Positions 40,991 to 57,257 of a stretch of DNA of 64,000 bases are shown here, one piece after another. The stretch lies in the sequence record OP352608; one strand, 5' to 3'. The number at the start of each line of letters is the position of its first letter. The stretch's first letter is position 1. The position numbers and the translations under genes were made by a program. The stretch is from Escherichia phage vB_EcoM_SP13. The notes beneath the pieces are model-generated. The model was not told the DNA's origin. It did no database searches and saw only the letters and a program-made list of their open reading frames with translations.

Positions 40991-41000
40991 GATGCACCAG

Positions 41001-41030: not shown

Positions 41031-41047
41031 GTTGATTTGATTGTCGA

Positions 41048-41908: not shown

Positions 41909-41967
41909 TTGATATTTTCCTATAGTATCAAGTTTCGTGGCAACCTGATTTCAAGATAAAGGTTAAA

Positions 41968-42525: not shown

Positions 42526-42785
42526 ATTTTACCTTCTTGCATTAGCCCTTCAACACGGGTCATTTGATAACGTTCAGGTTTCCAAGCCGCCAAAGCCTTC
42601 TCAGCGCCTTTTAAGGTTTTATATGCCTTGATGCCAGGCACAATAACGGTATTCACCCCAGCGCCGTTGCCATAATCAAACTCTTTAACAACGCGGAACA
42701 TCCCGTCAATTTCTTTGACCAAAAGACGTTTGAAAGCGATTGCGCCAGTAGCTTCATTTTTGTAACGTTCAAGGATGCGTACCAT
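42522..42785 (-). CDS. hypothetical small protein
   Basis: AGAGGA RBS; conserved upstream element at 42805-42830. Confidence 0.55.
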   Translation of the reverse strand: MVRILERYKNEATGAIAFKRLLVKEIDGMFRVVKEFDYGNGAGVNTVIVPGIKAYKTLKGAEKALAAWKPERYQMTRVEGLMQEGKI

Positions 42786-42804
42786 TTTGTGTTCCTCTGT
42801 TTCG

Positions 42805-42830
42805 TTTCGATGAAGTAATTATGACTCATC
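42805..42830 (-). promoter_or_regulatory. conserved element TTTCGATGA(A/G)GTAA(A/T)TAT(A/G)ACTCATC, copy 1
   Basis: Near-identical to the element at 49636-49669; both sit just upstream of a minus-strand gene start. Confidence 0.4.
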
Positions 42831-42859
42831 TTCCATGACAAGTCAAATTATTTTTGATA

Positions 42860-44383: not shown

Positions 44384-44802
44384 GACAATTCCTCTAAATA
44401 CTTGATGATGTGATGAATAGTTCCCTTCACGATTATCTCACGTTGAACGTCTGCAGTATTATAACGCTTTAATTCAATAGAAGGGTGGACTAAATAAAAC
44501 ATCTTCTCAGAATCAACCTTAAGCAGAACAAATGATGGGTATTTCCAATCATTCCACGAAGAAAGAAAGCTGCATTGGCCTTTCTCAAATGCATTTCTGA
44601 AAGGTGCAGTGGTGGCCCTTGCAGGCCACGATTCAAAGAACTTCATTTCAAGCCAAAAGCCGCGCCCTTTCCGGTTGGTGCCGATTACGTCCGGCACGCC
44701 ATCACCAGTCATCGACTCGATTCGTTGAAGCTTCAATACCGATTCTGAATGCTTCTTCAAAGGCACGAATATGTATTTCTGCTCACGGTTATTTGTTGCC
44801 AT
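44380..44802 (-). CDS. VRR-NUC-type PD-(D/E)xK nuclease
   Basis: GVPDVIG ... FWLEMKF fits the PD ... E-x-K signature; typical partner of SNF2 helicases in phages. Confidence 0.6.
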   Translation of the reverse strand: MATNNREQKYIFVPLKKHSESVLKLQRIESMTGDGVPDVIGTNRKGRGFWLEMKFFESWPARATTAPFRNAFEKGQCSFLSSWNDWKYPSFVLLKVDSEKMFYLVHPSIELKRYNTADVQREIIVKGTIHHIIKYLEELS

Positions 44803-47686
44803 CTGGATACACCTGTTTGATCACGTCAACGATGAACATGTCAATGCCTTCAAGCTTACGACCTTTCATCAGGAAGAATGCGCCGTTCCCGACGTTTTCA
44901 GCGATGTACTTCCCGTACTTCTGGAATTTCTCTGGACGAATCCTGAAGCGCATTGGCGAGTCGGTCGAGTCATCCTTGCACATAAGGTCGATGAACTGAG
45001 TCTCAAGCTTGTTCCCGTACTGGTCAAACTCTGCGTAGCGGCCATCAGCTTGAAGACCCTTTTTAAGCTTGCCGTGCTTTGTATAGATGCCGCGCTCAAG
45101 TCGTTTACGGATGCGTGTTGCTTCGTTCTCGTCCGCAAGCACTTTCTTTGTCAACTTGCCGATTACTATTGCGCGCTCGTCATCACCGACTTCCTTCATC
45201 TGGCGTATTGAAGCGCCGGACGTCACGCCAATCAGATAAGGGTCATTATATGCCCATCCGAACTTTGTGTGCATCTCTGTCAGGTCGCCATATTTAACTT
45301 CAGCATTGGCCAATGCATCCTTCTGCTTTTGCGTTAAGGTTCCGGCTTCACGCGCTTCGATATATTTCATCGCCTTCACCATGCCGTACCCTTTCGCGTT
45401 CATGATGCCGCCGATTAGCTTTCCGTTCGCGATGGTCCAGTTCATTGAAGAGTGATCAGGGTCGATTGGCACATAATCCACGCCTTCCTTCGCAAGTTCA
45501 CGTAATATCGCAATCGTCTGGTCTTCGTCCTTAGCAGCGCGTAAGCAGGCTGCGGCAAATTCCAACGGGTAGTGTCGCTTAAGCCACAAGGTCCAGTAGG
45601 TCACGACCGCGTATGACACGGAGTGTGACTTGTTAAAGCCCCATGACCCGAACGTGGCCATCGCTTGCCAAAGCTTTCTTGCATCCGCTTCCGGTACGCC
45701 ATTATTTATTGCGCCTGCAACAAAGTCCTCTCCAAGCTTGTTAAAGTATTCTTCACCCTTACGGCCTGACATTGCCTTACGTACAGCGGATGTTTTCGCC
45801 CAGTCGAATGAACCAATCTCTTTAACCACGGCCATGATTTGCTCTTGGTAAAGAAACACGCCGTAAGTCTCTTTTAGGTACGGCTCAATCTGCGGCACGT
45901 CGTACTCAATCGGCGCACGCCCTGCCGCGCGTTCAATGTATTTCTGGGCCATACCGGATGACAACGGGCCAGGTCGACCCAAAGCCGTCAGGTTGTCGAT
46001 TTTGTTAAAGTTATCGACGTGCACAAAGTTTGTTACTGAGCGTACAGCGTCGCCTTCAAACTGGAAGATGCCTGACATCTTGTTTTCGTTAAGAATGTCA
46101 AGGACGCTTTGATCATCAAGCTTGATGCCGTAGAGCGTTTCAGCATCAATAACGCCTGTATCAGAAATAATTCCGAGAGTACGAAGGCCCAACGCATCAA
46201 GCTTCAAAAGGTTAAGGTATTCGCTGTCAGGCTTATCAATTTGTGCAATCCCTTCTGCAGTTACAGTACAGTAATCAGAGATTGGGTCATTACACACAAT
46301 GATTCCCGCTGCGTGAACACCTGTGTGGGACGGGTGAATCTCAAGGTCGCCCATGCAACGCGCGGCATCAGGATATTTGGCCACGAACTCTTGACCCGTG
46401 GTTGTTGTTGCAAAGGTATCCTCCAGGCCGTGACCATAACGGGCGTCACCGGATGAGTATTCAAGCAGTGCGTTTTTAATGTTGGCCGTTTCGTGGTATC
46501 CAATGTTGAACTTCTTACCAACCTGCGCCATTACTGAGTTGGCCTTAAGCGTGTTGATGTTGCCAAGCTTTGCAACGTTCATTTCGCCGTATTTCTCTTT
46601 AAGGTAATCAAACACCATGTAGCGTTTGGTATCTTCAAAGTCGATGTCGATGTCAGGAAGGTCGGCGCGGCTTACGTCGATGAATCGGGCAAACAGCAGC
46701 TTATACGGGATTGGGTCCACTTCCGTGATGCCAAGGCAATAGCAAACAAGTGAACCAGCCGATGAGCCGCGAGCAGGACCGACGAGCATTTTTGTTTTTG
46801 CGAATCGTACAAGGTCCGCTACTACCAGAAAGTATGAGTCGAAATCTTTCAGCTGAATCTGGTGAATTTCTTCGTTGAAGCGGTCCTCATATTCCTGAGT
46901 CCATTCTTTGATGTGACCTGCTTTGAGACGGTACTCCATCCCCTCACGCGCAAGCTTTACCATATCACCAGCAAGGTGAATAATCGGTGCCTTGCGTAAT
47001 TTCAGGTCAAGTCCGACTATGCCGTTTGCTATGTCAACAGCATTGGCCGTTGCCTGATTCAGCTCATCTTCCGTCAAGATGCCTTTAAGCTGTTTGCGCA
47101 AGTCTTCCGCGTCAACGATGCAGTGCGGCTTGACCGTGTCGCGCACTTCCCAAGCATAAGCAAAGTCAACGTGCTCAGGTGAAGGCATGTGGTTGTATCC
47201 GGTTAAAACCAGCGGCCTTCCGTTGCTGCGGTGAGCCAACACCTGGCGCTTAGCCAAAAGGAACGATGATGGGTTGACGTCTATATAATCGTAGTCCTCT
47301 GGCCGCAGCAACTCCACGGCACCGCCACAGAATTTAACGACGCCATCGAGCGCACCGAACTCTGCACGGGTAAGCCCGCCGCGCTGCGTTGAAAGTGTTG
47401 TAGCGTTGTAAAAAGATTTTAAGTCAAGGGCCAATATCCAAGCCTTCGGTTTGAATCCCTTTTTCGGGTCCGCATCAGGGTCGATGATTGGAATCTCCAT
47501 CCCAAACATAGGCTTAATATCATTTTTCTGGCATTCCTTTTCCCAGCGAACGTGACCCCATGTATTGTTATCAACTAATGCCGCGACTTCGCAGCCCAAC
47601 TCTTTGAGCCGTGCTATAATTTCAGGATGCCGTCCATAAACTTCTTTGAACGTGTAACCGCTGCGAACTCTCAATTGTGGAAACAT
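44789..47686 (-). CDS. DNA polymerase III alpha-like (DnaE/C-family) replicative polymerase
   Basis: 965 aa; catalytic ADLPDIDIDFE segment matching the DnaE PDxDxDF active site; N-terminal PHP-like domain with degenerate histidines (QLRVRSGYTF). Confidence 0.85.
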   Translation of the reverse strand: MFPQLRVRSGYTFKEVYGRHPEIIARLKELGCEVAALVDNNTWGHVRWEKECQKNDIKPMFGMEIPIIDPDADPKKGFKPKAWILALDLKSFYNATTLSTQRGGLTRAEFGALDGVVKFCGGAVELLRPEDYDYIDVNPSSFLLAKRQVLAHRSNGRPLVLTGYNHMPSPEHVDFAYAWEVRDTVKPHCIVDAEDLRKQLKGILTEDELNQATANAVDIANGIVGLDLKLRKAPIIHLAGDMVKLAREGMEYRLKAGHIKEWTQEYEDRFNEEIHQIQLKDFDSYFLVVADLVRFAKTKMLVGPARGSSAGSLVCYCLGITEVDPIPYKLLFARFIDVSRADLPDIDIDFEDTKRYMVFDYLKEKYGEMNVAKLGNINTLKANSVMAQVGKKFNIGYHETANIKNALLEYSSGDARYGHGLEDTFATTTTGQEFVAKYPDAARCMGDLEIHPSHTGVHAAGIIVCNDPISDYCTVTAEGIAQIDKPDSEYLNLLKLDALGLRTLGIISDTGVIDAETLYGIKLDDQSVLDILNENKMSGIFQFEGDAVRSVTNFVHVDNFNKIDNLTALGRPGPLSSGMAQKYIERAAGRAPIEYDVPQIEPYLKETYGVFLYQEQIMAVVKEIGSFDWAKTSAVRKAMSGRKGEEYFNKLGEDFVAGAINNGVPEADARKLWQAMATFGSWGFNKSHSVSYAVVTYWTLWLKRHYPLEFAAACLRAAKDEDQTIAILRELAKEGVDYVPIDPDHSSMNWTIANGKLIGGIMNAKGYGMVKAMKYIEAREAGTLTQKQKDALANAEVKYGDLTEMHTKFGWAYNDPYLIGVTSGASIRQMKEVGDDERAIVIGKLTKKVLADENEATRIRKRLERGIYTKHGKLKKGLQADGRYAEFDQYGNKLETQFIDLMCKDDSTDSPMRFRIRPEKFQKYGKYIAENVGNGAFFLMKGRKLEGIDMFIVDVIKQVYPDGNK

Positions 47687-48228
47687 TATTTACTCCAGAT
47701 GTCATATACGCCAATTTGTTGGCAGACTTTGTGCAGTAATATTACGTCGTCTAATGCACGGTGCTTCTGTTCATATTTTCCGAAATATAATTCATACAAC
47801 TCTTGAAGCTTAACTCTTCGGCCAAAAATAGGCAAGGTTTGCTCAACTGTACATATGTTTATTTCTGGAAAATTAACATCATCAAGCGTAAGTCCTTCGC
47901 GCTGTAGTGCATAATCAAGAATGTTTTTATCGAACGCATGGTTGTGCGCGATAGTTGCATCAGTCTTCTTGAAGATTTCTTTTAGCTGCGGGACGAAATT
48001 GATGAACGGTGGATTGCACTCAAGGTCTTCATTTGTTAATCCGGTAATCTTTGTGATGATTTCTTCGATCACAATTTCAGGATTAATTATGAATTCAAAA
48101 GTTTCAAGAATCTCTTTGCCGTCTGTCAACAGACCTGCAAATTCAATAGGGCGCGGCTGCATCCCAAGCGGCGCTTTCGGGTGCACTGTCAATCCGGTTG
48201 TTTCGAAGTCATAAGGGAGAAATAACAC
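47686..48228 (-). CDS. DnaQ-like 3'-5' proofreading exonuclease (DEDD family)
   Basis: Exo I YDFETTG, Exo II HNHAFD, Exo III HRALDD; AGGAGG RBS. Confidence 0.85.
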   Translation of the reverse strand: MLFLPYDFETTGLTVHPKAPLGMQPRPIEFAGLLTDGKEILETFEFIINPEIVIEEIITKITGLTNEDLECNPPFINFVPQLKEIFKKTDATIAHNHAFDKNILDYALQREGLTLDDVNFPEINICTVEQTLPIFGRRVKLQELYELYFGKYEQKHRALDDVILLHKVCQQIGVYDIWSK

Positions 48229-48240
48229 ATTAGCCTCCTA

Positions 48241-48268
48241 CAAAAAGGCCGCCCATTAGGACGGCCAC
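48241..48268 (-). terminator. rho-independent terminator closing the flavoenzyme operon
   Basis: GGCCGCCC-atta-GGACGGCC hairpin (one mismatch); TTTTTG on the minus strand after it. Confidence 0.65.
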
Positions 48269-48282
48269 AGATTCACGATTCG

Positions 48283-48834
48283 TTATACAGTGTACGGAGT
48301 ACCGTCTTGATTCAAGCGCACGATAAACTTCAAATCAACGCCGATGATTTCACGCGTATCAAAGATCACATAGTTGTAACGACGTTGACCAGCAATGTTC
48401 GGGTTGGTATGAGAGTCAGTTACAACTTCCTGTGCAACCTGAATACCTTCTTCTTTAAAGAACTTACGCCATTCAGCAAGTTCAGCGGCAGTCACGTGCA
48501 TGCCAAGGTGGCTGACCTGATTGTCATGCGCATCGATATATTCGATGTTTTCGTTAATCCAGTTGCAGCCCATTGTGTAGTCAAGGATTTCAAGCTCAAG
48601 AGGCTTACCAGCGCCGCCATCAGTACCGTTGCCAGCCTGATAGTTGAAGCGCAAGTCAGCTTCATTGGTGCAATCGTCGCGACGACCTTTAAAGTCATCA
48701 GCTTCAAATACGCGACCAGTAGCAACAACATGATCATGGAACCATTCTGTCAGGCCGATTTTAGCCAAGAAATCCTGTGCGCGCTGAGCATCTGGAATTG
48801 ACAGGGCGATTTGTTCAATTTTAAAATGTGGCAT
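48283..48834 (-). CDS. VOC-family (glyoxalase/dioxygenase-like) protein candidate
   Basis: Two beta-alpha-beta-type modules starting IEQIALSIPDAQRAQDFLAKIGL and VSHLGMHVTAAELAEWRKFFKEEG resemble VOC repeats; tentative. Confidence 0.35.
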   Translation of the reverse strand: MPHFKIEQIALSIPDAQRAQDFLAKIGLTEWFHDHVVATGRVFEADDFKGRRDDCTNEADLRFNYQAGNGTDGGAGKPLELEILDYTMGCNWINENIEYIDAHDNQVSHLGMHVTAAELAEWRKFFKEEGIQVAQEVVTDSHTNPNIAGQRRYNYVIFDTREIIGVDLKFIVRLNQDGTPYTV

Positions 48835-48930
48835 TTTGTTTCCTTAATTAAATATTATTGATTAATTACTGCGTTGTCTTCGTCCTGTTTCTTTTCAGGA
48901 GCGGGTGTGACAACTTCAAGTGTTCGTGAT

Positions 48931-49614
48931 TTATTTACCAAATGGAATATCAGTGCCAGACATAAAGCGCCATGCGCCCGTAATTAAGATATGGCGAATG
49001 AAGTCAGCAATTACTTGCGGCTCAGTCTCCAATCCATTCATCAGTGCCTTTTTCTGGTATTCAGCGGCGTATTCAGGAGTCCAGCCGCGAGTCGCGCAAA
49101 CGGCATCTTCAATCTGTTTAGACATGCCAGTGCCGCGCAACTTGTTAGGACTAATAGAGAATACCGTGATGCCGTACTTAGGCGTAAGTTCGTGAGCCAT
49201 CTGCTTGCTGATCATAAGCGCAGCGGCCTTGGATGCATTATAACACAAGCTGGACGTCATAGGAATATGCGCAGCATTTGAAACGATGTTGATCACAAAA
49301 CCTTTGTTTTCGATAAGACCTTTCAGCGCGGCCTGAGTCGTGTTAACGAAAGAGAATGCATTGGTGTGCATAACGCGGTTAAACTCTTCATAGTTTACAT
49401 CTTCAAACCAATTGTTAGAGTTGACACCAGCACAGTTGATCAAGCCTTCAACATCATATGGGCTTAAAATTTCTTTCATCTGTTTAGCATCGCGGACGTC
49501 ATATCCGTATGCTGAATCGATGCCAAGCACGTTATGACCGTAAGCGCCAAGGGTGTCAAAAATAGATTTACCAAGACCGGAATTGGAACCTGTTACAACA
49601 ATTACTTTTTTCAT
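48931..49614 (-). CDS. short-chain dehydrogenase/reductase (classical SDR)
   Basis: Cofactor motif VTGSNSGLGKS (TGxxxGxG), NAAH, catalytic YNASK (YxxxK). Confidence 0.8.
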   Translation of the reverse strand: MKKVIVVTGSNSGLGKSIFDTLGAYGHNVLGIDSAYGYDVRDAKQMKEILSPYDVEGLINCAGVNSNNWFEDVNYEEFNRVMHTNAFSFVNTTQAALKGLIENKGFVINIVSNAAHIPMTSSLCYNASKAAALMISKQMAHELTPKYGITVFSISPNKLRGTGMSKQIEDAVCATRGWTPEYAAEYQKKALMNGLETEPQVIADFIRHILITGAWRFMSGTDIPFGK

Positions 49615-49635
49615 TTATTTATCCTTTTTGGACTT

Positions 49636-49669
49636 CGTTTCGATGAGGTAAATATAACTCATCGAAACG
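49636..49669 (-). promoter_or_regulatory. perfect 12-bp palindrome CGTTTCGATGAG-10 nt-CTCATCGAAACG, copy 2 of the conserved element
   Basis: Read directly; lies between the HAD and SDR genes. Confidence 0.45.
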
Positions 49670-49679
49670 AACAAGTAAA

Positions 49680-50552
49680 CTATTTATTGAAATTAATATT
49701 ATGGGTGTTTACAAGACGTTCACACATGGCGCTATAAACACCATCGTCGTGTATTGAGTCTTCGTGCTTCAGGCCGCTGATTGCGAAGCGTGTAAGCTTG
49801 ACAATCTTAAGCTCGAACAGATGCCACATGTGGTAGTCTTCCGGCGTTTTCAACGTTACGCCATTAGGGAAAAGCACCTGCATAACCTGACCTACCATCA
49901 CAGCGTTATCGCCATAGACAGCGTTGCGCTCACGGAAGGTCGCTGCCATTGCATCAAGAATATCGGCGGCAGTTGCCGGAGATTGTTCAACTTCCACAGC
50001 CTTAGTCTCTTCTTGCCCTGTTGCGCTTGGATCAATTGCTAATTGTTGCACCACTTCACCTGCTTTGCAAAGATTAAATGTAAAAGCGATTTTATTTTGA
50101 GCAACGGAGTTATAATACAATGCTTCATCTTGCATCCGCGCGAGTACGTCTTGTCGGTCGTCGAATACATTGATGATTCGATAATCGCCGTGCCGCAAAG
50201 CGTGCGATAGCCATGCAGATTTCATAATAGTTGATGGACGTTTGTCGCCATAGTCTCTCATCTTGATTGTAAATTCATCAAAAGGGAAAACATTGTCCAG
50301 ACGTTCAAAAGTCACTTGTCTGTATTTTTCTGGCCTTGCAGTCCAATATTCAACCGCCTCACCGCGAAGAGATGCCGACTCTACTGCTGATGCAATGTGA
50401 GGATAGAACTGATCATAACCAATACCGCTGTGATAGTCATCATAGTCTGACAACGGACCTGCCACCTTGATGCGGTCTAAGCGCCAACGGTCATCAAACA
50501 GAGTTCCGTCAAGGTCGAATACGTTTAAGATTTGGTTATTTTTGATACTCAT
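49680..50552 (-). CDS. HAD-superfamily phosphatase
   Basis: Motif I FDLDGTLFDD (DxDGT) and a downstream VFDDRQD (DD) motif; no kinase P-loop. Confidence 0.55.
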   Translation of the reverse strand: MSIKNNQILNVFDLDGTLFDDRWRLDRIKVAGPLSDYDDYHSGIGYDQFYPHIASAVESASLRGEAVEYWTARPEKYRQVTFERLDNVFPFDEFTIKMRDYGDKRPSTIMKSAWLSHALRHGDYRIINVFDDRQDVLARMQDEALYYNSVAQNKIAFTFNLCKAGEVVQQLAIDPSATGQEETKAVEVEQSPATAADILDAMAATFRERNAVYGDNAVMVGQVMQVLFPNGVTLKTPEDYHMWHLFELKIVKLTRFAISGLKHEDSIHDDGVYSAMCERLVNTHNINFNK

Positions 50553-51352
50553 CCTTTTGATACTCCATCTTTGGCAACCGGATTATTGGTGATTGGCATC
50601 GCATCCCAAAACTGGATGCGCAACTCTTCTTGCTGTGCAGTGGTATCCATCCAATCACGATACCAAGGGCAATGGGCCTTGCCATGGCGAGGGAATGCGC
50701 ACTTGCCCATACCGATGCATTGCGGCTGTAGTAAAGGATTAGCCCACGGGTGCACCTTGAGGACTTCCGCTACCATCGCACGGAAAACTTCCTGATACTC
50801 GCCTTGAGTACGCGTGCACAAGCGGTTAGAGGCCATTTGTTGTAGAGTGCGCAAGTTGAACTTTGCCATGATATGCGTTTGCATATTAGAAGGCAACACG
50901 GCACGTGCATCTTGAATCTCTGCGCCAGCCGCGCGAAGTTCTTGGTATAGGGCGTCAATGGTTGCCATTGCATCATCCCATTTCTCTGCCAGTTCAGCAG
51001 CCTTCTCGTCATGACGAGTCCATCCCTTTGGATCATCCTCTGGGTAAGTGAATTTGGCAGGACGAATCGCATCAAACGCTGACGACTCCTGAGCGCGGCT
51101 TGTTCGTTCTTGATATGCACCTGTTCGTGTGCGCACCATCTGATGAGTCATATTCTTTGATACATCAGTGATGTCAAAGATATAGTCAACAAAGTCGAAA
51201 GGTGACTTTATGGTGTCAAGCATGTAGCGCCAGTGCTCTTGCTTCTCTGATTCTGTCATCTCAGAGACTGGCTTACCAGCCATGCGCGTATTCTTTGTTT
51301 CCAGCAGAAGGTCAAGTGCATCTTGGGTGTATCGAATTAATTCAACTTTCAT
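50549..51352 (-). CDS. ThyX-family flavin-dependent thymidylate-synthase-like protein with divergent signature motif
   Basis: SPFDFVDYIF ... RTRTGAYQERTSR aligns by eye to the ThyX HETPFEH ... RHR-x7-S region but with His->Thr and Ser->Thr; downstream QDARAVLPSN ... NLRTL retains ThyX-like segments; Cys/His-rich C-terminal extension. Confidence 0.7.
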   Translation of the reverse strand: MKVELIRYTQDALDLLLETKNTRMAGKPVSEMTESEKQEHWRYMLDTIKSPFDFVDYIFDITDVSKNMTHQMVRTRTGAYQERTSRAQESSAFDAIRPAKFTYPEDDPKGWTRHDEKAAELAEKWDDAMATIDALYQELRAAGAEIQDARAVLPSNMQTHIMAKFNLRTLQQMASNRLCTRTQGEYQEVFRAMVAEVLKVHPWANPLLQPQCIGMGKCAFPRHGKAHCPWYRDWMDTTAQQEELRIQFWDAMPITNNPVAKDGVSKG

Positions 51353-51365
51353 TTTAATTATCCTA

Positions 51366-51812
51366 TTAACGGTAGTTAACTAGTTGCTGATCACCAGAGA
51401 AGGTGCAATGATAAACGAATTGTGCGTTATAAAGCAACTGAAAACTTTTCTTTGGTTCATTATTAGAACTCATTGATGTAAAGATTTCTGCACCAGAACG
51501 GTTTTCACCAATCAGGTTGATAAAGCCGCCAGTTGAACGAGGCTGAACGAAAGTGAAACGTTGCATCCACGGAGTGCGGTTGGCACCTTTCCCTGTGAAT
51601 CCTTGAATCTGAATATTCAGGCCTTCTTGCTCGTTCACACCGATGTAAGTGGTAATTGTTGCGCCAGTCGTTGCTGCAGTCTTGCCGTCCATCGCTTCGC
51701 AATCGTAAACAGCGATTGAATCGGAAGTACGGACAGCGGCTTCAGTCGCTTCCATATACATGGTTCCGAGAATAGCAGTTGCGGCAAGCGCGATTCCAGT
51801 GATTCGTTTCAT
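51366..51812 (-). CDS. exported protein of unknown function (signal peptide)
   Basis: MKRITGIALAATAILGTMYMEATEA signal-peptide-like N-terminus. Confidence 0.55.
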   Translation of the reverse strand: MKRITGIALAATAILGTMYMEATEAAVRTSDSIAVYDCEAMDGKTAATTGATITTYIGVNEQEGLNIQIQGFTGKGANRTPWMQRFTFVQPRSTGGFINLIGENRSGAEIFTSMSSNNEPKKSFQLLYNAQFVYHCTFSGDQQLVNYR

Positions 51813-51832
51813 TTTCGTTTCCTCTATGAGTT

Positions 51833-51869
51833 CTGCTTCAATGATTAAAGTATACGCCCATTGAAGCAG
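51833..51869 (-). promoter_or_regulatory. intercistronic stem-loop (10-bp perfect stem, 17-nt loop)
   Basis: CTGCTTCAAT ... ATTGAAGCAG; no T-tract, so more likely a processing or stability element than a terminator. Confidence 0.3.
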
Positions 51870-51877
51870 AAAGCAAA

Positions 51878-52873
51878 TTATTTATTAGCAATATAAGCAA
51901 ATTTTTGATAGTTATTTGCTTTGATGAGTTTTTCAACTTCAACAAGGTCATGAGCAACGTCATCAAGCAAAATGTTTCGCCAAGTAGCAAAGCGACCGAC
52001 ACTAAATACGTTCAAATCCATGGTCAGCTGTAGGAGTAGAGCGTGTCGCAAGTCTTTCGGAATGTCGACAATCTTGCCATACTTCTGGTCGACCTTTTCA
52101 ACTTCTTCGAGATCGATGTCACTCCATGATAGGCCAAAGGCTGTCAATACTTCGTCAACTTCTGCACGCAACTTAATGTCACGGTAACGAGTAATGCCGC
52201 CAGCGGCTTCAACTGCGGCTTCACTTACGCTAACCAAAGGAATTGTTTCAATGATCAGTGTGTCACCAGTGATTGATGCGCGGTAAGTTCTGACGGAGTA
52301 GTCAGGAAAGTAAATGGTTTGATACAGTGCACACTTGCGCTTAATCTTAAAGCGGTAAACACGAATGTTTGCCTTATCGAATGAGAAATCAATCTTTTGA
52401 TCAATCCCAGCAAGCTTCATCATGACTGGCAGCGGCGACGTGTTGATGATTGGCGTCTCGCTATAGCCGCAAAGAGTATCAACAGGAGTATTAAAGAATA
52501 TGCGGTCACCCAGTTTGTCGACAAGCTGATCATAAAAGTCATCAGGCGCAATATAACGCGTTGCAGTTTTAAGCTTCATGATTGAGCGGCTACCGAATTG
52601 ATTAGTGACCTTCATGGAATACATATTGGCAAGGTTGATTGGGCAATGGTCGTGGTAGTAGTTGCCGCGAAAATACACAGCCTTGTCAACTGTCACGGCC
52701 TTAAAAGGGATTCCGGTAATACGGCTTACTTCTTCGCCGCGAAATCGTAGCAAAGCCTTGTGCTGTGGCGCTCGTTCCCCTGCTTCGTACACAATGGAGT
52801 TCGGGAAGTGACACGCGGTAATAAGTCCTGCCAAACCGCCGCCGATAATCATTACAGGTTGTTTCATGTTCAT
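51878..52873 (-). CDS. FAD/NAD(P)-binding oxidoreductase (UDP-galactopyranose-mutase-like flavoenzyme candidate)
   Basis: N-terminal dinucleotide-binding VMIIGGGLAGL; C-terminal FSVGRFATWRNILLDDVAHD resembles the G-R-x-A-x-Y ... D segment of the UGM/amine-oxidase superfamily; subfamily tentative. Confidence 0.55.
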   Translation of the reverse strand: MNMKQPVMIIGGGLAGLITACHFPNSIVYEAGERAPQHKALLRFRGEEVSRITGIPFKAVTVDKAVYFRGNYYHDHCPINLANMYSMKVTNQFGSRSIMKLKTATRYIAPDDFYDQLVDKLGDRIFFNTPVDTLCGYSETPIINTSPLPVMMKLAGIDQKIDFSFDKANIRVYRFKIKRKCALYQTIYFPDYSVRTYRASITGDTLIIETIPLVSVSEAAVEAAGGITRYRDIKLRAEVDEVLTAFGLSWSDIDLEEVEKVDQKYGKIVDIPKDLRHALLLQLTMDLNVFSVGRFATWRNILLDDVAHDLVEVEKLIKANNYQKFAYIANK

Positions 52874-52897
52874 TTGTCCTTTGTGGGTGATATGAGA

Positions 52898-52926
52898 AGT
52901 ATAATAGCTAAATTATTTTACAGCAA
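52898..52926 (-). promoter_or_regulatory. sigma70-like promoter for the flavoenzyme operon
   Basis: On the minus strand: -35 TTGCTG, 17-nt spacer, -10 TATACT, about 25 nt before the ATG at 52873. Confidence 0.5.
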
Positions 52927-52950
52927 CAAGTCATTTCTATTTAGTACAGA

Positions 52951-52978
52951 CGAAAAAGACCCACAACAAGTGTGGGTC
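52951..52978 (-). terminator. rho-independent terminator after the Lys/Ala/Glu-rich gene
   Basis: GACCCACA-acaag-TGTGGGTC perfect hairpin followed on the minus strand by TTTTTCG. Confidence 0.75.
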
Positions 52979-53006
52979 AATTACCGCTATATAACCGTCC
53001 TACAGG

Positions 53007-53852
53007 TTATTCCGCTTGATCACCGTCTTCGGCATTGTCGTTGGATTCAACATCGACAAACTCGATGTGGCCCATCTCTTCCAGCTTGCTCAGGTAGGAG
53101 CGAACGGAAGCGCCAAACAGTTGATCTTTAACTTTTTCGCCCAGCTCATCGATAGACTGCGCCACGCCAACTTCGCCTTCTTTGATCGCCGCCAGAACGC
53201 GTCCACGGGTGGAATGCTCTTGCGGCTGGCTCAGGCCATTGCCGGTGTAGATGAAGTGAGTGGCTTTTGCACGACGCTGACCGTTTGCCTTTTTAGCAGC
53301 CTTGCGCTCTGCGATGGCTTTGCGACGTTCTTCAGCTTCTTTCTTACGCTGTTCTTTCTGCTGTTCTGCAGCTTCTTTAGCCGCAATCTTAGCAGCTTCA
53401 CGCTCTGCCTTGCGTTTCGCTTTAGCTTCTTCTTTGGCCTTCTCTTTTTCGGCCTTCGCTGCAGCACGGGCTTGATCACGCTCTGCTTTCTTGGCCGCAG
53501 CCTGCTCAGCTTTCAGGCGCTTGGCTTCTTCTTTAGCCTTTGCCTTTTCGATTTCTTTTGCTGCTTTAGCGGCTTCACGCTCTGCTTTCTTAGCAGCAGC
53601 CTTTTCTGCACGCTCTTTAGCTTTCTTAGCTGCTTCTTCAGCACGCTTCTGCGCCTTCTCATCAGCAGCCTGCTTGCGTTTCAGCGCAGCTTCTTCACGC
53701 TTGGCTTGTTTTTCCTGCTCACGCTTCTGGCGCTTCTCTTCGGCTTCTTTCTTTTTAGCCAGGCGTTTTTCTTCAGCCACGCGACGACGTTCTGCTGCGG
53801 CTGCTTGTTTTTCTTCTTTAGATAATACTTTGATTGCTTCGGCCATATTCAC
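53007..53852 (-). CDS. Lys/Ala/Glu-rich low-complexity protein with a globular C-terminal domain
   Basis: About 200 aa of KAEEAAKKAKERAEK-type repeats (TolA-, histone-H1- or IF2-like composition) followed by an 80-aa non-repetitive tail. Confidence 0.6.
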   Translation of the reverse strand: MNMAEAIKVLSKEEKQAAAAERRRVAEEKRLAKKKEAEEKRQKREQEKQAKREEAALKRKQAADEKAQKRAEEAAKKAKERAEKAAAKKAEREAAKAAKEIEKAKAKEEAKRLKAEQAAAKKAERDQARAAAKAEKEKAKEEAKAKRKAEREAAKIAAKEAAEQQKEQRKKEAEERRKAIAERKAAKKANGQRRAKATHFIYTGNGLSQPQEHSTRGRVLAAIKEGEVGVAQSIDELGEKVKDQLFGASVRSYLSKLEEMGHIEFVDVESNDNAEDGDQAE

Positions 53853-54005
53853 AGTCCTTAAATAAATTAGTTTATTTTATATTCCCCGTTTGGGATAACT
53901 TAATTATGCCTTCAGTTGCCGCCAGTAGCAACTAAAAACTATGGCGGCAATGCCACTTTAATTAAACTGATTTTCAGTTTTATTTTTCGTAAATTTACGT
54001 CAACA

Positions 54006-55190
54006 TTAACGCGCTTTCAAATCACGGTACACGGTCAGATTCTTCTTAGCACGGGTGATAGCGGTGTACATCATCTTGGAGTACGGAACGCCGCGCAAGA
54101 TTTCTTCCAGCACGCACACATTATCCCACTCGCTGCCTTGCGATTTGTGCACCGTGATGACATAGCCATAGTCCATCCCGCCAACAGCGCGTTGCGCTTC
54201 TTTGCGCACTTCCTGATCAGTAGAGAAGGAAAGAGGATTGATCTTCACCTTTATATCTTTACCATCAGTTAATGAACGCAAGTTGACATACATTATTTCA
54301 TTCGACTCATCTTCATCCCTTTCAAAGTCCGGCACTGGCTCATAGCTAATAACAATCCCTTGCTCGCCATTACAGAATCCTGGACCGTGTTGGTTGAATG
54401 TGCAAATAACCTTCTCGCCGATTCCTGGCATTGGCGTTATACGTCCGCTCACTTGCCGTAATAATGAATTCCATTTATCTTTGGTGCTATTATAGGAGCA
54501 AATAATTTGATCATCTTCGCCCATGAATTTCTTCAATGCAGTAACGCGCGGCGATTCTGCCAATACTTTGACGTCATCGTATTCACGCGGGGGAAGGCGG
54601 TTGCCTTGGCGCACGAAGAAGGAGGCGCGGATTATATTGGACTCTTTCCCTTGCCGCATGATTTCGGTTAACAGCACGTCAACGGCATCTTCAGTAAAGT
54701 AGGCGGCGGCTTTTACCGGAGGGACTTGTCCAATGTCGCCTAATGCCAGGACAGGGATGCGGTGATCAAGAAGGCGCTCTGTGTCCCACTCGCCAACCAT
54801 CGACGCTTCATCGAGTACAACAAGGTGCGGCCTTTCATCCAGCTTTGACTTTCTCGAAAAGATTGGCTCATTGTCGTCATTTACGCCGCGCACGTTATAG
54901 ATGAACTGGTGAAGGGTCTTAGCGCCACGACAGCCTTTTTGCTTTAATCGGCTTGCAGCCTTTCCGGTCGGCGCAATATAGATAGCTCCATACTCACCGA
55001 CACAACGGCGCACAATCTCGCGAGCAATAGAGGTTTTACCAGTCCCTGCATAGCCAGCGATGAAAAACACGCGCTTCGTCGTTTTACCGTCCTGCAATCG
55101 CTTGTACCATGCAACGGCTTTCTCGATGGCGTCGATTTGTTGCGCGTTAAACTGAATCACTGGCTCATCATTAAATTCTGGAATGTTCAT
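54006..55190 (-). CDS. Dda/RecD-like SF1 DNA helicase
   Basis: Walker A AGYAGTGKTS, Walker B VVLDEASMV, and the C-terminal VITVHKSQGSEWDNV motif typical of RecD/Dda/Pif1 helicases. Confidence 0.8.
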   Translation of the reverse strand: MNIPEFNDEPVIQFNAQQIDAIEKAVAWYKRLQDGKTTKRVFFIAGYAGTGKTSIAREIVRRCVGEYGAIYIAPTGKAASRLKQKGCRGAKTLHQFIYNVRGVNDDNEPIFSRKSKLDERPHLVVLDEASMVGEWDTERLLDHRIPVLALGDIGQVPPVKAAAYFTEDAVDVLLTEIMRQGKESNIIRASFFVRQGNRLPPREYDDVKVLAESPRVTALKKFMGEDDQIICSYNSTKDKWNSLLRQVSGRITPMPGIGEKVICTFNQHGPGFCNGEQGIVISYEPVPDFERDEDESNEIMYVNLRSLTDGKDIKVKINPLSFSTDQEVRKEAQRAVGGMDYGYVITVHKSQGSEWDNVCVLEEILRGVPYSKMMYTAITRAKKNLTVYRDLKAR

Positions 55191-55516
55191 TATAACTCCA
55201 CTACGCTTTCAAGGTCCAGATATACTGGAATAAAATGGCAATCTTCTTTTCGTTCAAACATCTCACCATCAACATGGCTGAAGAAAACAGTTGTGTTTGG
55301 TATCTTCCATCCTTTCTCGTCGCGCACTAAGTACGCCATGGATTCAACAGGGATGTACAGCGATACCGGATTTGCGGCAAAAATAAATTTGATTCTGTCT
55401 GGTTGGCCCAGAAATCGCATGATTGTTAGGCTTGAATTCAATCTTGTATTAAGGAAGGACTCAACGATTCCGACGTGTGTTGCACGTTCGCGTTGCTTCG
55501 TCTCTTTTTCGTTCAT
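55190..55516 (-). CDS. hypothetical protein (108 aa), first gene of the minus-strand unit
   Basis: ORF; 1-nt overlap with the helicase gene. Confidence 0.55.
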   Translation of the reverse strand: MNEKETKQRERATHVGIVESFLNTRLNSSLTIMRFLGQPDRIKFIFAANPVSLYIPVESMAYLVRDEKGWKIPNTTVFFSHVDGEMFERKEDCHFIPVYLDLESVVEL

Positions 55517-55554
55517 TTCAGGCGACCTTTGTTAGTGCGGAAATATTTTCTGAT

Positions 55555-55583
55555 AGTATAATTGCAGATATAGTATAAAGCAA
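55555..55583 (-). promoter_or_regulatory. sigma70-like promoter for the minus-strand replication unit
   Basis: On the minus strand: -35 TTGCTT, 17 nt, -10 TATACT; divergent from the primase promoter. Confidence 0.45.
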
Positions 55584-55619
55584 AGTAAATCGAAATTGTG
55601 AACTAAATGGTAAATATTG

Positions 55620-55647
55620 TTGACTTTGTATCACTCAATATTATACT
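55620..55647 (+). promoter_or_regulatory. sigma70-like promoter for the primase unit
   Basis: -35 TTGACT, 16-nt spacer, -10 TATACT, then AAAGGAAAGAAAG RBS and ATG 55677. Confidence 0.55.
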
Positions 55648-55676
55648 GCAGGTATTGATCACCAAAGGAAAGAAAG

Positions 55677-56759
55677 ATGGCTAGTTTAAGAGAAGAAGCA
55701 AAAATAATTGAAGAGTTTTTAACAGAACTCCAGAGAGGCATCCCAGAAGATGAGCGCGTCATGACGGTGTTTGCTCCTGAAGCAACGGTGCAGACTGACG
55801 AGCGCGGAAAGAAGATTAACAGCAGCTTCTGGCCTAAGCCTTGGAAGTTGGGCAAGCCGCTCATGCAGCACCAAAACGGCTATGCTTGCATCAGTTCAAT
55901 GCGTAAGTCTCCCAACCCAAAGACGGGTGAGATGCGATACTGGCGTACAGAGTCGGCCTTTGGTCACGGTATGGCGATGATGGTCGACGACATCGGTCAC
56001 GGTAAAGGGTCCAAAGGCGATTTAGATTTGGAATTCTTTTTTGAGCGACTGAAGCCGACTGTCATCGTCGAGACTTCACCGAACAACCACCAGCTTTGGT
56101 ACTTCTTTAAAGAACCGATTGACCATCTTATTCAGTTCAAAGCGTTCCTTGGGTCTTTCGTTAACATGGTACTCAAGAAGGGCGGCGACAACACGATTAA
56201 AGACGTAACGCGCGTGGGCCGTGTTCCTGGGTGCATCAATAACAAGCGTGTGACTCACGACGGCCCCTATAAATATGTCGATGAGAACGGCGACCCGTTC
56301 CGCTGCCGACTTGTCCATGCAGACTACTCCTTGCGCTACACCATCGAAGACATTTGTCACGCATTTGGCTTTCACGTCGTCATGCCGCAAAAGCGTGAGA
56401 TTCAAATTGACGTCGATGAATACAAGTATGATGCCGTTTGGTATAAAATAGCCCAGCAGATTCTGGCGCGCAACAAGATGGGTGAAGGGTCTGATGGCGA
56501 CGTCATCGAGAATATGTCAGGCAAGTGCCGCATAATCTGTCCTTGGGGTGAAGAGCACACCAACGGCGACCCGTATGGCGCGTACTTTCGCGGCCCTATC
56601 CCTGGTGCAGAACATGAATTTGTGTTCGGTTGCGCCCACGACTGTCACCGGAAAGGGGAAGGCAAGAAAGGTTGGACTGCTTTTGTTGAAGCAATCGTCA
56701 TGCCTTATATTGAGAATCAACTTGACATGATAAATCGTCGTGCAGGTGGCATAAAATAG
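55677..56759 (+). CDS. DNA primase, archaeo-eukaryotic (AEP / prim-pol) type, with C-terminal zinc-binding region
   Basis: AMMVDDIGHG, ETSPNNHQLWYFF (S-x-x-H-x-W motif) and VGRVPGCINNK segments resemble AEP motifs I-III; C-terminal CPWGEEH ... CAHDCH. Confidence 0.6.
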   Translation: MASLREEAKIIEEFLTELQRGIPEDERVMTVFAPEATVQTDERGKKINSSFWPKPWKLGKPLMQHQNGYACISSMRKSPNPKTGEMRYWRTESAFGHGMAMMVDDIGHGKGSKGDLDLEFFFERLKPTVIVETSPNNHQLWYFFKEPIDHLIQFKAFLGSFVNMVLKKGGDNTIKDVTRVGRVPGCINNKRVTHDGPYKYVDENGDPFRCRLVHADYSLRYTIEDICHAFGFHVVMPQKREIQIDVDEYKYDAVWYKIAQQILARNKMGEGSDGDVIENMSGKCRIICPWGEEHTNGDPYGAYFRGPIPGAEHEFVFGCAHDCHRKGEGKKGWTAFVEAIVMPYIENQLDMINRRAGGIK

Positions 56760-56817
56760 TTTGCTTTTATTTTCATAGCAACTATAATCATTTTATGAAC
56801 TGAAGCAGAGGTGATTT

Positions 56818-56964
56818 ATGCAAAGCGAAGAATTGAACATCGAGGTTGAAGGACTGTTAAAGTCGTTAGAACCTAAACCAGTAGAGCTTCCGACCCTTCA
56901 AGGCGTCATGGCTCACCATCAATCGGCTGCGGCCCAACACTACTCTGAATTTGTTAAGGAATAA
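56818..56964 (+). CDS. 48-aa hypothetical protein
   Basis: Not in the ORF track; GCAGAGGTGA RBS 6 nt before the ATG. Confidence 0.4.
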   Translation: MQSEELNIEVEGLLKSLEPKPVELPTLQGVMAHHQSAAAQHYSEFVKE

Positions 56965-56966
56965 AA

Positions 56967-57257
56967 ATGAACGAACCAAAAATGATGACCGTTGAAGAAG
57001 CACAAAAGCTTCGTGTTGAAAACGAGCTTAAGCTTGTCAACCAGATTCTTCCTTTGTTTGCAGGCTACGCAGTGGAGGAAGTTGTTGGGGCAATCCTTAA
57101 CGTATCCACGCATGTCGCTATGAATCTTCAGGCCGAGCGATTCAACACACTGCTGACTATTAAAGACCTTACCGTCAGCGCAACGTTCACTGTTGAGCCA
57201 GTCAATTTTGACGAAGCTTCAGCCGCGATTCAACAGCAAAGAGATCAAGAGGTGTAG
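56967..57257 (+). CDS. hypothetical protein (96 aa)
   Basis: ORF with AAGGAA RBS. Confidence 0.55.
   Translation: MNEPKMMTVEEAQKLRVENELKLVNQILPLFAGYAVEEVVGAILNVSTHVAMNLQAERFNTLLTIKDLTVSATFTVEPVNFDEASAAIQQQRDQEV

What the first reader, a model, noticed from the sequence alone, without database searches (positions are those of the whole stretch)
53007..53852. Lys/Ala/Glu-repeat protein with a small globular C-terminal domain, transcribed as its own unit
About 200 residues of KAEEAAKKAKERAEK-type low-complexity repeats resemble the TolA central domain, histone H1 tails or IF2 N-termini. The gene is isolated by a terminator downstream and sits next to the helicase gene. It could be a DNA-condensing or nucleoid-targeting protein, or an injected internal protein.
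Basis: partly seen in the sequence, partly recalled or inferred. Interest (0 to 1): 0.45.

Follow-up and report, generated by a model that had tools for sequence, protein, structure and literature searches.

The report
Abundant phage helix-plus-winged-helix protein
This is a real, strongly expressed phage gene for a roughly 26-nm charged rod joined to a small winged-helix domain and an acidic tail; it is not TolA, most likely coats or organises DNA, and has never been tested experimentally.

Summary
The window is a Wifcevirus, 100% identical to Escherichia phage F13 over the queried stretch. A 279-aa gene lies on the minus strand at 53007-53846, starting at ATG 53846 rather than GTG 53852. It has its own sigma70-like promoter and an intrinsic terminator, and this layout recurs in all seven relatives examined.

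The "low-complexity" part is highly ordered. AlphaFold predicts one unbroken helix over residues 10-185. It keeps a continuous 11-residue register, with K/R on one face and D/E on the opposite face. That stripe is present in most family members analysed but absent from E. coli TolA. Five Wifcevirus genes show 28 variable codons in this N-terminal region (residues 1-185), all synonymous.

The C-terminal domain is a winged helix with no sequence relative outside this phage lineage; only 38 clusters were found among 1.84 billion proteins. Codon bias equals that of the major capsid gene. Published mass spectrometry found the near-identical protein in CsCl-purified virions, strongly in one phage and as a trace in another.

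The TolA, H1 and IF2 resemblances are compositional only. My best reading is an abundant DNA-binding architectural protein, analogous to the KER helix, winged helix and acidic region of CAF-1. DNA binding is inferred, not shown.

The parts
53007..53846 (-). Coding sequence of the 279-aa protein; the stop codon is 53007-53009 and the start is ATG 53846
   Evidence: ORF list and sequence. 97-100% identical genes of the same length occur in 28 Wifcevirus records. PHROG 4765 matches at E = 1e-83. Peptides were found by MS in vB_Eco4M-7 and ECML-117.
53292..53819 (-). Residues 10-185: a single predicted alpha-helix of 176 residues (about 26 nm). It keeps an 11-residue register that puts K/R on one face and D/E on the opposite face; net charge is +24
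   Evidence: AlphaFold2 gives an unbroken helix with block-mean pLDDT mostly 84-97, lower at both ends. K/R fall at hendecad positions 1, 4, 8 and 11, and D/E at 3, 6, 9 and 10. Basic period 3.68 (z 10.8), with the acidic stripe 176-184 degrees away. Only 6% bulky hydrophobic residues. Internal DNA repeats spaced 96-102 nt correspond to three hendecads. All 28 variable codons in residues 1-185 are synonymous.
53262..53291 (-). Residues 186-195: basic linker KANGQRRAKA containing the invariant RR
   Evidence: R191, R192 and A195 are invariant in alignment A1. pLDDT dips here.
53055..53261 (-). Residues 196-264: winged-helix domain with topology strand-H1-strand-H2-H3-strand; it is the conserved core of the family
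53010..53054 (-). Residues 265-279: disordered acidic tail (7 D/E, no K/R)
   Evidence: Composition; pLDDT below 50. An acidic tail of about 10-45 residues is present in nearly all homologues. It holds the only amino-acid changes seen within the genus.
53855..53859 (-). Shine-Dalgarno AAGGA, 8 nt before the ATG
   Evidence: Read directly from the sequence.
53903..53931 (-). Sigma70-type promoter TTGCTA-17 nt-CATAAT; the -10 element ends 56 nt before the ATG
   Evidence: Consensus scan. The same type of site, TTGCxx/TTCCCT-17-xAxAAT, is the best match at the same position (-10 end 49-75 nt before the ATG) in JG024, BcepF1, Gekk3-15, FoX7 and SMP. Prediction only.
52948..52978 (-). Intrinsic terminator: 8-bp GC-rich stem, 5-nt loop, then TTTTTCGTCT
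   Evidence: -15.3 kcal/mol for the 46-nt segment holding the hairpin. Annotated in WFC and WFH. Equivalent terminators follow the gene in JG024, Pa193, phiKTN6, BcepF1, Gekk3-15, FoX7 and SMP.
53941..53956 (-). Weak hairpin plus T-run just after the helicase gene; a possible partial insulator upstream of the promoter
   Evidence: BcepF1 and Gekk3-15 show clearer hairpin-plus-T structures at the same place.

Best explanation
The gene encodes an abundant architectural protein that binds nucleic acid, most likely double-stranded DNA, non-specifically.

Shown by computation or by published data:
- It is transcribed as its own unit, with a host-type promoter and an intrinsic terminator.
- Its codon bias matches that of the major capsid gene.
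- The near-identical protein is made and co-purifies with CsCl-banded virions.
- It is predicted to be a rigid helix of about 26 nm whose K/R residues form one continuous stripe, with D/E on the opposite face.
- A winged-helix domain with an invariant helix 3 follows, then an acidic tail.

Inferred:
- The basic stripe lies along the DNA backbone over tens of base pairs, as the K/E/R-rich single-helix DNA-binding domain of CAF-1 does.
- The winged helix supplies a second, more specific contact, either to DNA or to a conserved replication-module partner.
- The acidic tail folds back on the basic surfaces or recruits partners, tuning binding as in CAF-1, HMGB1 and phage SSBs.
- The result would be coating or organisation of phage DNA during the very fast infection cycle, with some protein carried into or onto virions with the DNA.
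For: Expression and transcription:
- Monocistronic layout with promoter and terminator conserved in seven relatives spanning six genera or groups.
- Fraction of optimal codons is 0.74-0.79, against 0.76-0.77 for the major capsid gene and 0.48-0.56 for six replication-module genes.
- MS on CsCl-purified vB_Eco4M-7 gave 7 peptides, 25.8% coverage and score 1197.6, sixth of 33 and above the portal and capsid proteins (PMC7048862).

The helix:
- Single helix over residues 10-185, block-mean pLDDT mostly 84-97, with almost no hydrophobic seam.
- Hendecad register with a basic stripe (z 10.8) and an acidic stripe about 180 degrees away.
- The stripe is kept in most family members analysed (z up to 20) although the sequences cannot be aligned.
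- Within the genus, all 28 variable codons in residues 1-185 are synonymous and there are no indels.

The C-terminal domain and context:
- Winged-helix fold. Its helix-2/helix-3 region resembles, from memory, the sequence pattern of DNA-binding wHTH proteins, and R249, S250, S253 and K254 are invariant.
- Constant position in the replication and nucleotide-metabolism module.

Precedent:
- The CAF-1 KER is a long single helix with basic residues biased to one face. It binds DNA at nM affinity, cooperates with a winged-helix domain, and that winged helix is autoinhibited by an acidic region (PMC10335832).
Against: - No DNA-binding assay exists for any family member.
- The acidic face and 23% D/E make the helix only moderately cationic, and net charge in many homologues is just +2 to +10.
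- The myosin 7a single helix, of similar composition, does not bind DNA (PMC10335832).
- The optimal-codon list came from memory.
- The virion MS signal is about 40-fold lower relative to capsid protein in ECML-117.
- The protein was not reported among 31 proteins of DNA-free ghost particles of the Pbunavirus SCUT-S1.
Confidence: 0.45

Rival explanations
1. It is a substitute for a single-stranded-DNA-binding protein, or a replisome organiser. The protein would coat ssDNA at the fork, and its acidic tail would recruit the adjacent Dda-like helicase or the polymerase, as the acidic tails of T4 gp32 and T7 gp2.5 do.
For: - No SSB is recognisable in the replication arm, either by Pfam or PHROGs or in the curated Bas99 annotation.
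- The gene sits immediately after the Dda-like helicase in seven relatives spanning six genera or groups.
- An own promoter and terminator plus high codon bias resemble T4 gene 32 (from my own knowledge).
- A conserved acidic C-terminal tail is present.
- Abundant DNA-binding proteins such as an SSB are known to turn up in virion MS preparations (PMC9151335).
Against: - There is no OB fold; the only globular domain is a winged helix.
- The distant homologue P0040 keeps its position next to the phrog_4828 and ThyX genes without any Dda helicase upstream.
- The host SSB could serve the phage.
- I know of no precedent for ssDNA binding by a rigid charged helix.
Confidence: 0.2
2. It is a genuine virion-internal protein, packaged with the genome and possibly injected with it, that protects or organises the incoming DNA. 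This does not exclude the best explanation.
For: - It is detected in CsCl-purified virions of two Wifceviruses, with a high score in one.
- Homologues are annotated 'structural protein' in Pbunavirus records, including one from the laboratory that did the PB1-group virion proteomics.
- It is absent from DNA-free ghost particles of SCUT-S1, as expected for a DNA-bound passenger.
- A helix about 1 nm wide with an 8-kDa head is thin enough to pass a tail tube (inference).
Against: - The signal varies about 40-fold relative to capsid protein between two near-identical phages, which fits an adventitious passenger better than a stoichiometric component.
- The gene has a host-type promoter inside the replication arm rather than the late structural arm.
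- Neither the main text nor the abstract consulted for the Pa193 and E217 cryo-EM studies mentions it.
- The original PB1-group proteomics paper could not be read.
Confidence: 0.2
3. It is a protein-protein tether or ruler. The winged helix would bind a conserved protein, such as the phrog_4828 neighbour, a replisome component or a host factor, while the rigid helix holds it at a fixed distance or bundles with other copies through its complementary charged faces.
For: - The winged-helix surface is near neutral with many invariant polar residues.
- Fold neighbours include protein-binding winged helices (RPA32C, Scc1-C, ScpB) and peptide-binding RRE domains.
- Helix length clusters around 165-190 residues in many diverged lineages.
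- Opposite basic and acidic faces could zip helices together side by side (inference).
- The downstream neighbour is co-conserved even in the most distant homologue found.
Against: - Capsid-level codon bias is unusual for an adaptor.
- Distant members lack the helix altogether.
- A net positive stripe kept across most of the family points to a polyanion partner.
- No partner has been identified.
Confidence: 0.12
4. It is a TolA-like envelope-spanning protein, as many database records label it.
For: The composition of the helix resembles TolA domain II: A/K/E-rich, with TolA at A 40%, K 19% and E 15%. Several GenBank records use the label 'TolA protein'.
Against: - There is no hydrophobic segment: the maximum 19-residue Kyte-Doolittle mean is 0.61, against 2.45 for the TolA anchor.
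- There is no Pfam match at all, including the TolA C-terminal domain.
- The C-terminal fold is a winged helix.
- TolA domain II has no 3.67-residue charge periodicity (z -1.3 against +10.8).
- No tolQ, tolR or pal genes lie nearby.
Confidence: 0.02

Closest known systems
CAF-1 large subunit (yeast Cac1 / human p150): KER single-alpha-helix DNA-binding domain, acidic ED region and winged-helix domain
   Same: Both have a long solvent-exposed single helix rich in K, E and R, with basic residues biased to one face and a net positive charge. Both carry a winged-helix domain in the same polypeptide and an acidic segment able to mask a DNA-binding surface. In CAF-1 the helix binds DNA non-specifically at nM affinity and its length sets the DNA length recognised (PMC10335832).
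   Different: There is no sequence homology; the only profile hit to CAF-1 is compositional (E = 4). The domain order differs: here the acidic part is a C-terminal tail rather than lying between helix and winged helix. The phage helix is Ala-rich (30%), about twice as long as the yeast KER, and follows a strict hendecad register. There is no histone-chaperone context. DNA binding is untested here.
E. coli TolA (domain II)
   Same: Both contain a long Ala/Lys/Glu-rich, presumably helical, extended region. This is the source of the 'TolA protein' label in databases.
   Different: The phage protein has no membrane anchor, no TolA domain III, no tol-pal context and no shared periodic charge pattern. 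The resemblance is compositional only.
Linker histone H1/H5 and bacterial H1-like proteins (my own knowledge of AlgP and Hc1)
   Same: Both combine a small winged-helix-type globular domain with a long Lys/Ala-rich region. One weak Foldseek match was to the yeast H1 globular domain (E = 3.1).
   Different: H1 tails are disordered, Pro/Ser-rich and nearly free of acidic residues. Here the region is a predicted rigid helix with 23% D/E in an ordered stripe. There is no Pfam linker-histone match, and the order is reversed, with the basic region N-terminal.
Phage histone-like and early DNA-coating proteins (phi29 p6, SPO1 TF1, T4 gp32; from my own knowledge)
   Same: These are abundant early or middle phage proteins encoded in the replication region that coat DNA. 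Some have acidic C-terminal tails and their own transcription units.
   Different: The folds are unrelated (p6 fold, HU fold, OB fold). None has a long single helix or a winged helix.
Classical ER/K single alpha helices (myosin VI/VIIa/X, caldesmon)
   Same: Both are isolated, highly charged helices without a hydrophobic seam that act as rigid spacers.
   Different: Classical SAHs are near neutral, with E and K interleaved for i/i+4 salt bridges. Here like charges are segregated onto opposite faces in an 11-residue register. The myosin 7a SAH does not bind DNA.

Membership tests
TolA (Tol-Pal system) | N-terminal transmembrane anchor (domain I) | tested here: not met
   The maximum 19-residue Kyte-Doolittle mean is 0.61, and it lies inside the winged helix. 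E. coli TolA reaches 2.45 at residue 14.
TolA (Tol-Pal system) | C-terminal domain III (Pfam TolA C-terminal family) | tested here: not met
   No Pfam family matches the whole protein at E <= 1 or the C-terminal domain at E <= 10, apart from two chance-level unrelated hits. The predicted fold is a winged helix.
TolA (Tol-Pal system) | Long Ala/Lys/Glu-rich helical domain II | tested here: inconclusive
   Composition is similar. The charge pattern differs: periodicity z is 10.8 here and -1.3 in TolA.
TolA (Tol-Pal system) | Genomic association with tolQ, tolR, tolB and pal | tested here: not met
   The neighbours are the Dda-like helicase, the phrog_4828 protein, ThyX, a PNKP-like protein and FabG.
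Linker histone H1/H5 | Globular domain belonging to the linker-histone winged-helix family | tested here: not met
   No Pfam match. The only structural link is a non-significant Foldseek hit to Hho1p GII (E = 3.1, TM 0.27).
Linker histone H1/H5 | Disordered, strongly basic, acid-poor Lys/Ala/Pro tails | tested here: not met
   The region is a predicted continuous helix with no proline and 23% D/E.
IF2 N-terminal region | Attached translational GTPase core | tested here: not met
   No GTPase or any other Pfam domain is present, and the protein is only 279 aa.
Winged-helix (wHTH) fold superfamily | Three-helix bundle with a small beta-sheet, and structural similarity to known winged helices | tested here: met
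Single alpha helix (SAH / ER-K) domains | Long isolated helix, highly charged, without a hydrophobic seam | tested here: met
   The 176-residue helix has block-mean pLDDT mostly 84-97. Bulky hydrophobic residues are 6% and show no heptad periodicity. This is a prediction only; the oligomeric state was not tested.
Single alpha helix (SAH / ER-K) domains | Interleaved acid-to-base i/i+4 salt-bridge pattern | tested here: inconclusive
   Base-to-acid at i+4 is enriched (z 3.2), but acid-to-base at i+4 is not (z -0.5). Like charges instead segregate onto opposite faces.
CAF-1 KER-type SAH DNA-binding domain (functional class) | Net positive helix with basic residues biased to one face | tested here: met
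   Net charge is +24. K/R period is 3.68 with z 10.8 and a resultant vector of 0.39. The stripe is kept in most of the family.
CAF-1 KER-type SAH DNA-binding domain (functional class) | Direct, sequence-independent DNA binding | not testable with these tools
   This needs a gel-shift or anisotropy assay with purified protein.
OB-fold single-stranded-DNA-binding proteins | OB-fold core | tested here: not met
   There is no SSB or OB family match in Pfam or PHROGs. The model contains only a helix and a winged helix.
Phage scaffolding proteins | Gene located in the head-assembly module next to the portal, protease and capsid genes | tested here: not met
   The gene lies in the replication arm about 34 kb from the capsid gene. 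In Pa193 the scaffold-like helix was assigned to gp24 in the head module.

The most novel reading that the evidence does not exclude
The family is a new kind of phage chromatin protein. In this reading a roughly 26-nm 'charge-Janus' single helix lies along double-stranded DNA and is clamped by a winged helix. It is loaded onto the genome in capsid-protein amounts, travels with it into the virion and through the tail tube, and shields the entering DNA. That would explain the so far unexplained resistance of Wifceviruses to most restriction-modification systems tested, and might contribute to their very short latent period.
Probability: 0.1. Interest if true: 0.8.

Novelty: new variant of a known kind. 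Interest (0 to 1): 0.5.

Why it matters
The family is conserved in Pbunavirus, among the Pseudomonas phages most used in therapy, and in the very fast-replicating Wifceviruses. It appears to be made at capsid-protein levels, yet it is mislabelled 'TolA' or 'structural protein' and has no known function.

If the striped helix binds DNA, it would be the first phage or bacterial-world example of a single-alpha-helix DNA-binding domain, a class defined only in 2023 for eukaryotic CAF-1. It would also be a candidate for the missing genome-protection or SSB function of these phages.

The result further shows that an apparently low-complexity region can carry a strict, selected 11-residue code.

Tried and rejected
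Searches that gave no family or function:
- Pfam on the whole protein and on the C-terminal domain alone gave nothing above chance.
- A PDB sequence-profile search gave only compositional hits at E >= 2.6.
- Foldseek against the PDB gave nothing below E = 0.3.
- Foldseek against BFVD returned, below E = 0.001, only four proteins (three named phage homologues and one uncharacterised phage protein).
- The afdb50 library was unavailable.
- Word-indexed homologue searches gave only 2 and 8 hits. The exhaustive profile search was needed to see the whole family of 38 cluster representatives.

Analyses that led nowhere:
- I looked for iterons or repeated binding motifs near the gene and in the divergent intergenic region. 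Only the internal coding repeats and chance pairs appeared.
- The GC-skew minimum at about 55.2-55.4 kb coincides with the strand switch of transcription and was not pursued.

Literature that could not be reached:
- The original PB1-group virion proteomics (Ceyssens 2009, Environ Microbiol) is not held.
- Supplements of the Pa193, FoX and ONT-cappable-seq papers are not held.
- The 14-1 transcriptome papers give no per-gene data for this gene.
- The HiBiT-tagging study of vB_Eco4M-7 did not tag this gene.

Readings considered and rejected: TolA, H1 and IF2 membership (see membership tests); coiled coil (no hydrophobic seam); and scaffolding protein (wrong module, and the scaffold is already assigned elsewhere).
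Full report
**What is there.** The stretch 52900-54000 is 100% identical to Escherichia phage F13 and 97-99% identical to 27 other Wifcevirus records. The flagged ORF lies on the minus strand. The GTG at 53852 is only the first possible start. The ATG at 53846 has an AAGGA Shine-Dalgarno 8 nt upstream and is the start used in all annotated relatives. The product is 279 aa.

- Residues 10-200 are A 30%, K 24%, E 20% and R 12%.
- Residues ~196-264 are compositionally ordinary.
- The last 15 residues are acidic.
- A textbook intrinsic terminator follows the stop codon.
- The Dda/RecD-like helicase gene lies directly upstream.

The 269-aa ORF on the opposite strand is a composition shadow.

**It is a real, constrained and expressed gene.** PHROG 4765 (unknown function) matches end to end at E = 1e-83. 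A tblastn search with the C-terminal 97 residues finds 356 phage records. These are Pbunavirus (293 Pseudomonas phage records), Wifcevirus, Serratia Myosmarvirus, Burkholderia BcepF1, Xanthomonas Carpasinavirus, and Pantoea, Salmonella and Aeromonas phages. Five Wifcevirus genes have exactly the same length. Their region covering residues 1-185 has 28 variable codons, every one synonymous, and the only amino-acid changes are at 268, 270 and 271 in the acidic tail. Necel et al. analysed CsCl-banded virions by mass spectrometry (PMC7048862). They detected the orthologue of vB_Eco4M-7 (98.5% DNA identity) with 7 peptides, 25.8% coverage and score 1197.6, sixth of 33 proteins. They detected the ECML-117 orthologue with 2 peptides and score 3.21.

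**Its own transcription unit, conserved.** A sigma70-type site, TTGCTA-17-CATAAT, lies at 53931..53903. In JG024, BcepF1, Gekk3-15, FoX7 and SMP the best sigma70-like match has the same form and the same position, with the -10 element ending 49-75 nt before the ATG. A GC-rich hairpin plus T-run follows the gene in the window and in all seven relatives examined: JG024, Pa193, phiKTN6, BcepF1, Gekk3-15, FoX7 and SMP. The promoters are predictions. Their positional conservation is the supporting evidence.

**Likely abundance.** I scored codons against a list of E. coli optimal codons recalled from memory. The fraction of optimal codons is 0.74, or 0.79 when K, E and A are excluded. The major capsid gene scores 0.77 and 0.76, the sheath gene 0.66 and 0.61, and six replication-module genes 0.48-0.56. 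All 25 arginines use CGT or CGC. This points to a stoichiometric role rather than a catalytic or regulatory one.

**The "low-complexity" region is a patterned helix.**

- *Prediction.* AlphaFold2, with a 10-sequence alignment, gives a single unbroken helix over residues 10-185, with block-mean pLDDT mostly 84-97. That is 176 residues, or about 26 nm at 0.15 nm per residue.
- *Not a coiled coil.* Bulky hydrophobic residues make up 6% and there is no heptad signal.
- *The register.* Written in rows of 11, K/R occupy positions 1, 4, 8 and 11 in 11, 12, 9 and 10 of the 16 rows. D/E occupy positions 3, 6, 9 and 10, and Ala fills much of the rest.
- *Statistics.* The K/R period is 3.68 residues; none of 1000 shuffles reached the observed power, and z is 10.8. 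The D/E period is 3.66. The two mean vectors lie 176-184 degrees apart.
- *Meaning.* The helix has a continuous basic face and an opposite acidic face, with a net charge of +24.
- *Evolution.* Imperfect DNA repeats spaced 96-102 nt, or three hendecads, suggest growth by in-register duplication.
- *Conservation.* The basic-stripe period of 3.65-3.70 recurs in most family members analysed, with z up to 20, although their helices cannot be aligned. Helix lengths range from about 60 to 190 residues, with many lineages near 165-190.
- *Control.* E. coli TolA domain II, of similar composition, shows no such periodicity (z -1.3).

An exhaustive profile search of 1.84 billion cluster representatives finds only 38 proteins, with the matched domain C-terminal in all full-length members. 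Twenty-six positions are invariant in alignment A3, including R191 and R192 before strand 1, the G..S.PQ loop, S212-x-R214-G215 at the start of H1, and VRSxLSKLEExGH on H3. From memory, the H2-H3 sequence resembles the pattern of DNA-binding wHTH proteins. However, the region (residues 186-264) is nearly neutral, with 11 K/R against 10 D/E, so a protein partner cannot be excluded.

The four most distant members (P0039-P0042) replace the charged helix with a different N-terminal region. One of them, P0040, still sits in front of the same neighbours: a phrog_4828 homologue (39% identity), then ThyX, a PNKP-like gene, a short-chain reductase, an exonuclease and Pol III alpha. It has no Dda helicase upstream. 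The winged helix is therefore the ancestral core, and the striped helix is a lineage addition that has since been kept.

**Comparison with known systems.**

- *TolA.* The label fails three of four defining features: no anchor, no domain III and no tol-pal context. It matches on composition only.
- *Histone H1.* Both tested features fail.
- *IF2.* There is no GTPase domain.
- *CAF-1.* The closest functional analogue I found is the CAF-1 large subunit. Its K/E/R-rich region is a long single alpha helix with basic residues biased to one face. It binds DNA non-specifically at nM affinity, and its length sets the DNA length recognised. It cooperates with a winged-helix DNA-binding domain that is autoinhibited by an acidic region. 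A myosin 7a single helix of similar composition does not bind DNA, so the basic face is what matters (PMC10335832). The phage protein has all three elements, without any homology.
- *Phage precedents.* From my own knowledge, phi29 p6, SPO1 TF1 and T4 gp32 are abundant early DNA-coating phage proteins.

**Most likely mechanism, and what is inferred.**

Shown by computation or by published data:
- the separate transcription unit;
- strong purifying selection;
- capsid-like codon bias;
- expression, and presence in CsCl-purified particles;
- a predicted 26-nm helix with segregated charge faces;
- a winged-helix fold and an acidic tail.

Inferred:
- the basic stripe binds the DNA backbone over tens of base pairs;
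- the winged helix adds a second contact;
- the tail modulates binding or recruits partners;
- the protein coats or organises phage DNA.

I put this at about 0.45.

**Rivals.**

- *SSB substitute or replisome organiser.* No SSB is recognisable in the genome.
- *Genuinely packaged or injected protein.* The virion signal differs about 40-fold relative to capsid protein between two near-identical phages. The protein was not among the 31 proteins of DNA-free ghost particles of a Pbunavirus.
- *Protein tether or ruler.*

These rivals partly overlap with the best explanation.

[quoted passage not shown] An abundant DNA-coating protein is one candidate explanation, but nothing here tests it.

**Verdict.** The finding is real and more structured than it looked. 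The database label 'TolA' is wrong. The function is unproven. I rate it of moderate interest, as an uncharacterised, conserved and probably abundant protein with an unusual, testable architecture in therapeutically relevant phages.

Noticed in passing
window 51878-52873 (-): The gene immediately downstream encodes a 331-aa protein with an N-terminal GxGxxG dinucleotide-binding-like motif (MKQPVMIIGGGLAGL). It matches PHROG 4828 (unknown function) and has no Pfam or PDB sequence match. It accompanies the winged-helix gene in all seven relatives examined and, at 39% identity, even in the most distant homologue's contig, always just before ThyX.
   Followed up: partly
window ~38000-57000 (replication arm); Bas99 record PQ850618: No single-stranded-DNA-binding protein is recognisable in the replication module by Pfam or PHROGs, or in the curated Bas99 annotation. 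Polymerase, exonuclease, two helicases, two primases and a ligase are all present.
   Followed up: partly
P0006-P0010, P0018, P0024, P0025, P0033; L004 3605-4270 (BcepF1); L008 3485-4375 (Gekk3-15): Many family members outside Wifcevirus and Pbunavirus begin with a short His-rich peptide, such as MSHGHHAHESGNHQHG or MHKHHNHDHN, ahead of the charged helix. It may bind metal. The window protein lacks it.
   Followed up: no
window 53284-53753: Imperfect internal DNA repeats spaced 96, 99 and 102 nt (32-34 codons, or three hendecads) suggest the helix grew by in-register duplications.
   Followed up: partly
window 53016-53825 (+): A 269-aa ORF lies antisense to the gene and encodes a Leu/Phe/Ser-rich product. 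It is a shadow of the biased codon composition, not a gene.
   Followed up: yes
window 41048-41908 (-), 41968-42525 (-), 48283-48834 (-): Three genes inside the 'replication' arm gave high MS scores (518-718) in CsCl-purified vB_Eco4M-7 virions, as gp70, gp71 and gp77. They are Pam3 gp34-like, Pam3 gp33-like (DUF7307) and a weak glyoxalase-family match. Two of them recurred in ECML-117. At least the first two may be displaced structural genes.
   Followed up: partly
window 53847-53902 (-) and the equivalent 5' leaders in L003, L004, L008, L009, L010: A short hairpin lies about 8-12 nt after the predicted -10 element in the window, SMP, Gekk3-15 and JG024 leaders. A CACAGG/CACC-like motif appears near the predicted start site in five of six lineages. 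The window leader is then very AU-rich up to the Shine-Dalgarno. This could be a stabilising or regulatory 5' element.
   Followed up: partly
P0039-P0042; L016 6001-6594: The most distant family members keep the winged helix but replace the charged helix with a different N-terminal region that weakly matches PHROG 4730 (unknown function). They sit in a phage contig with the same ThyX, PNKP, reductase, exonuclease and Pol III alpha order but no Dda helicase.
   Followed up: partly
window 51366-51812 (-): A 148-aa ORF between the phrog_4828 gene and thyX begins with a signal-peptide-like hydrophobic segment (MKRITGIALAATAILGTMY). It matches no Pfam or PHROG family.
   Followed up: no
window 55516-55677: A divergent intergenic region lies between the helicase-side and primase-side gene blocks. 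It coincides with the local minimum of cumulative GC skew and a GC dip to 39-40%. It could hold divergent promoters and possibly an origin.
   Followed up: no
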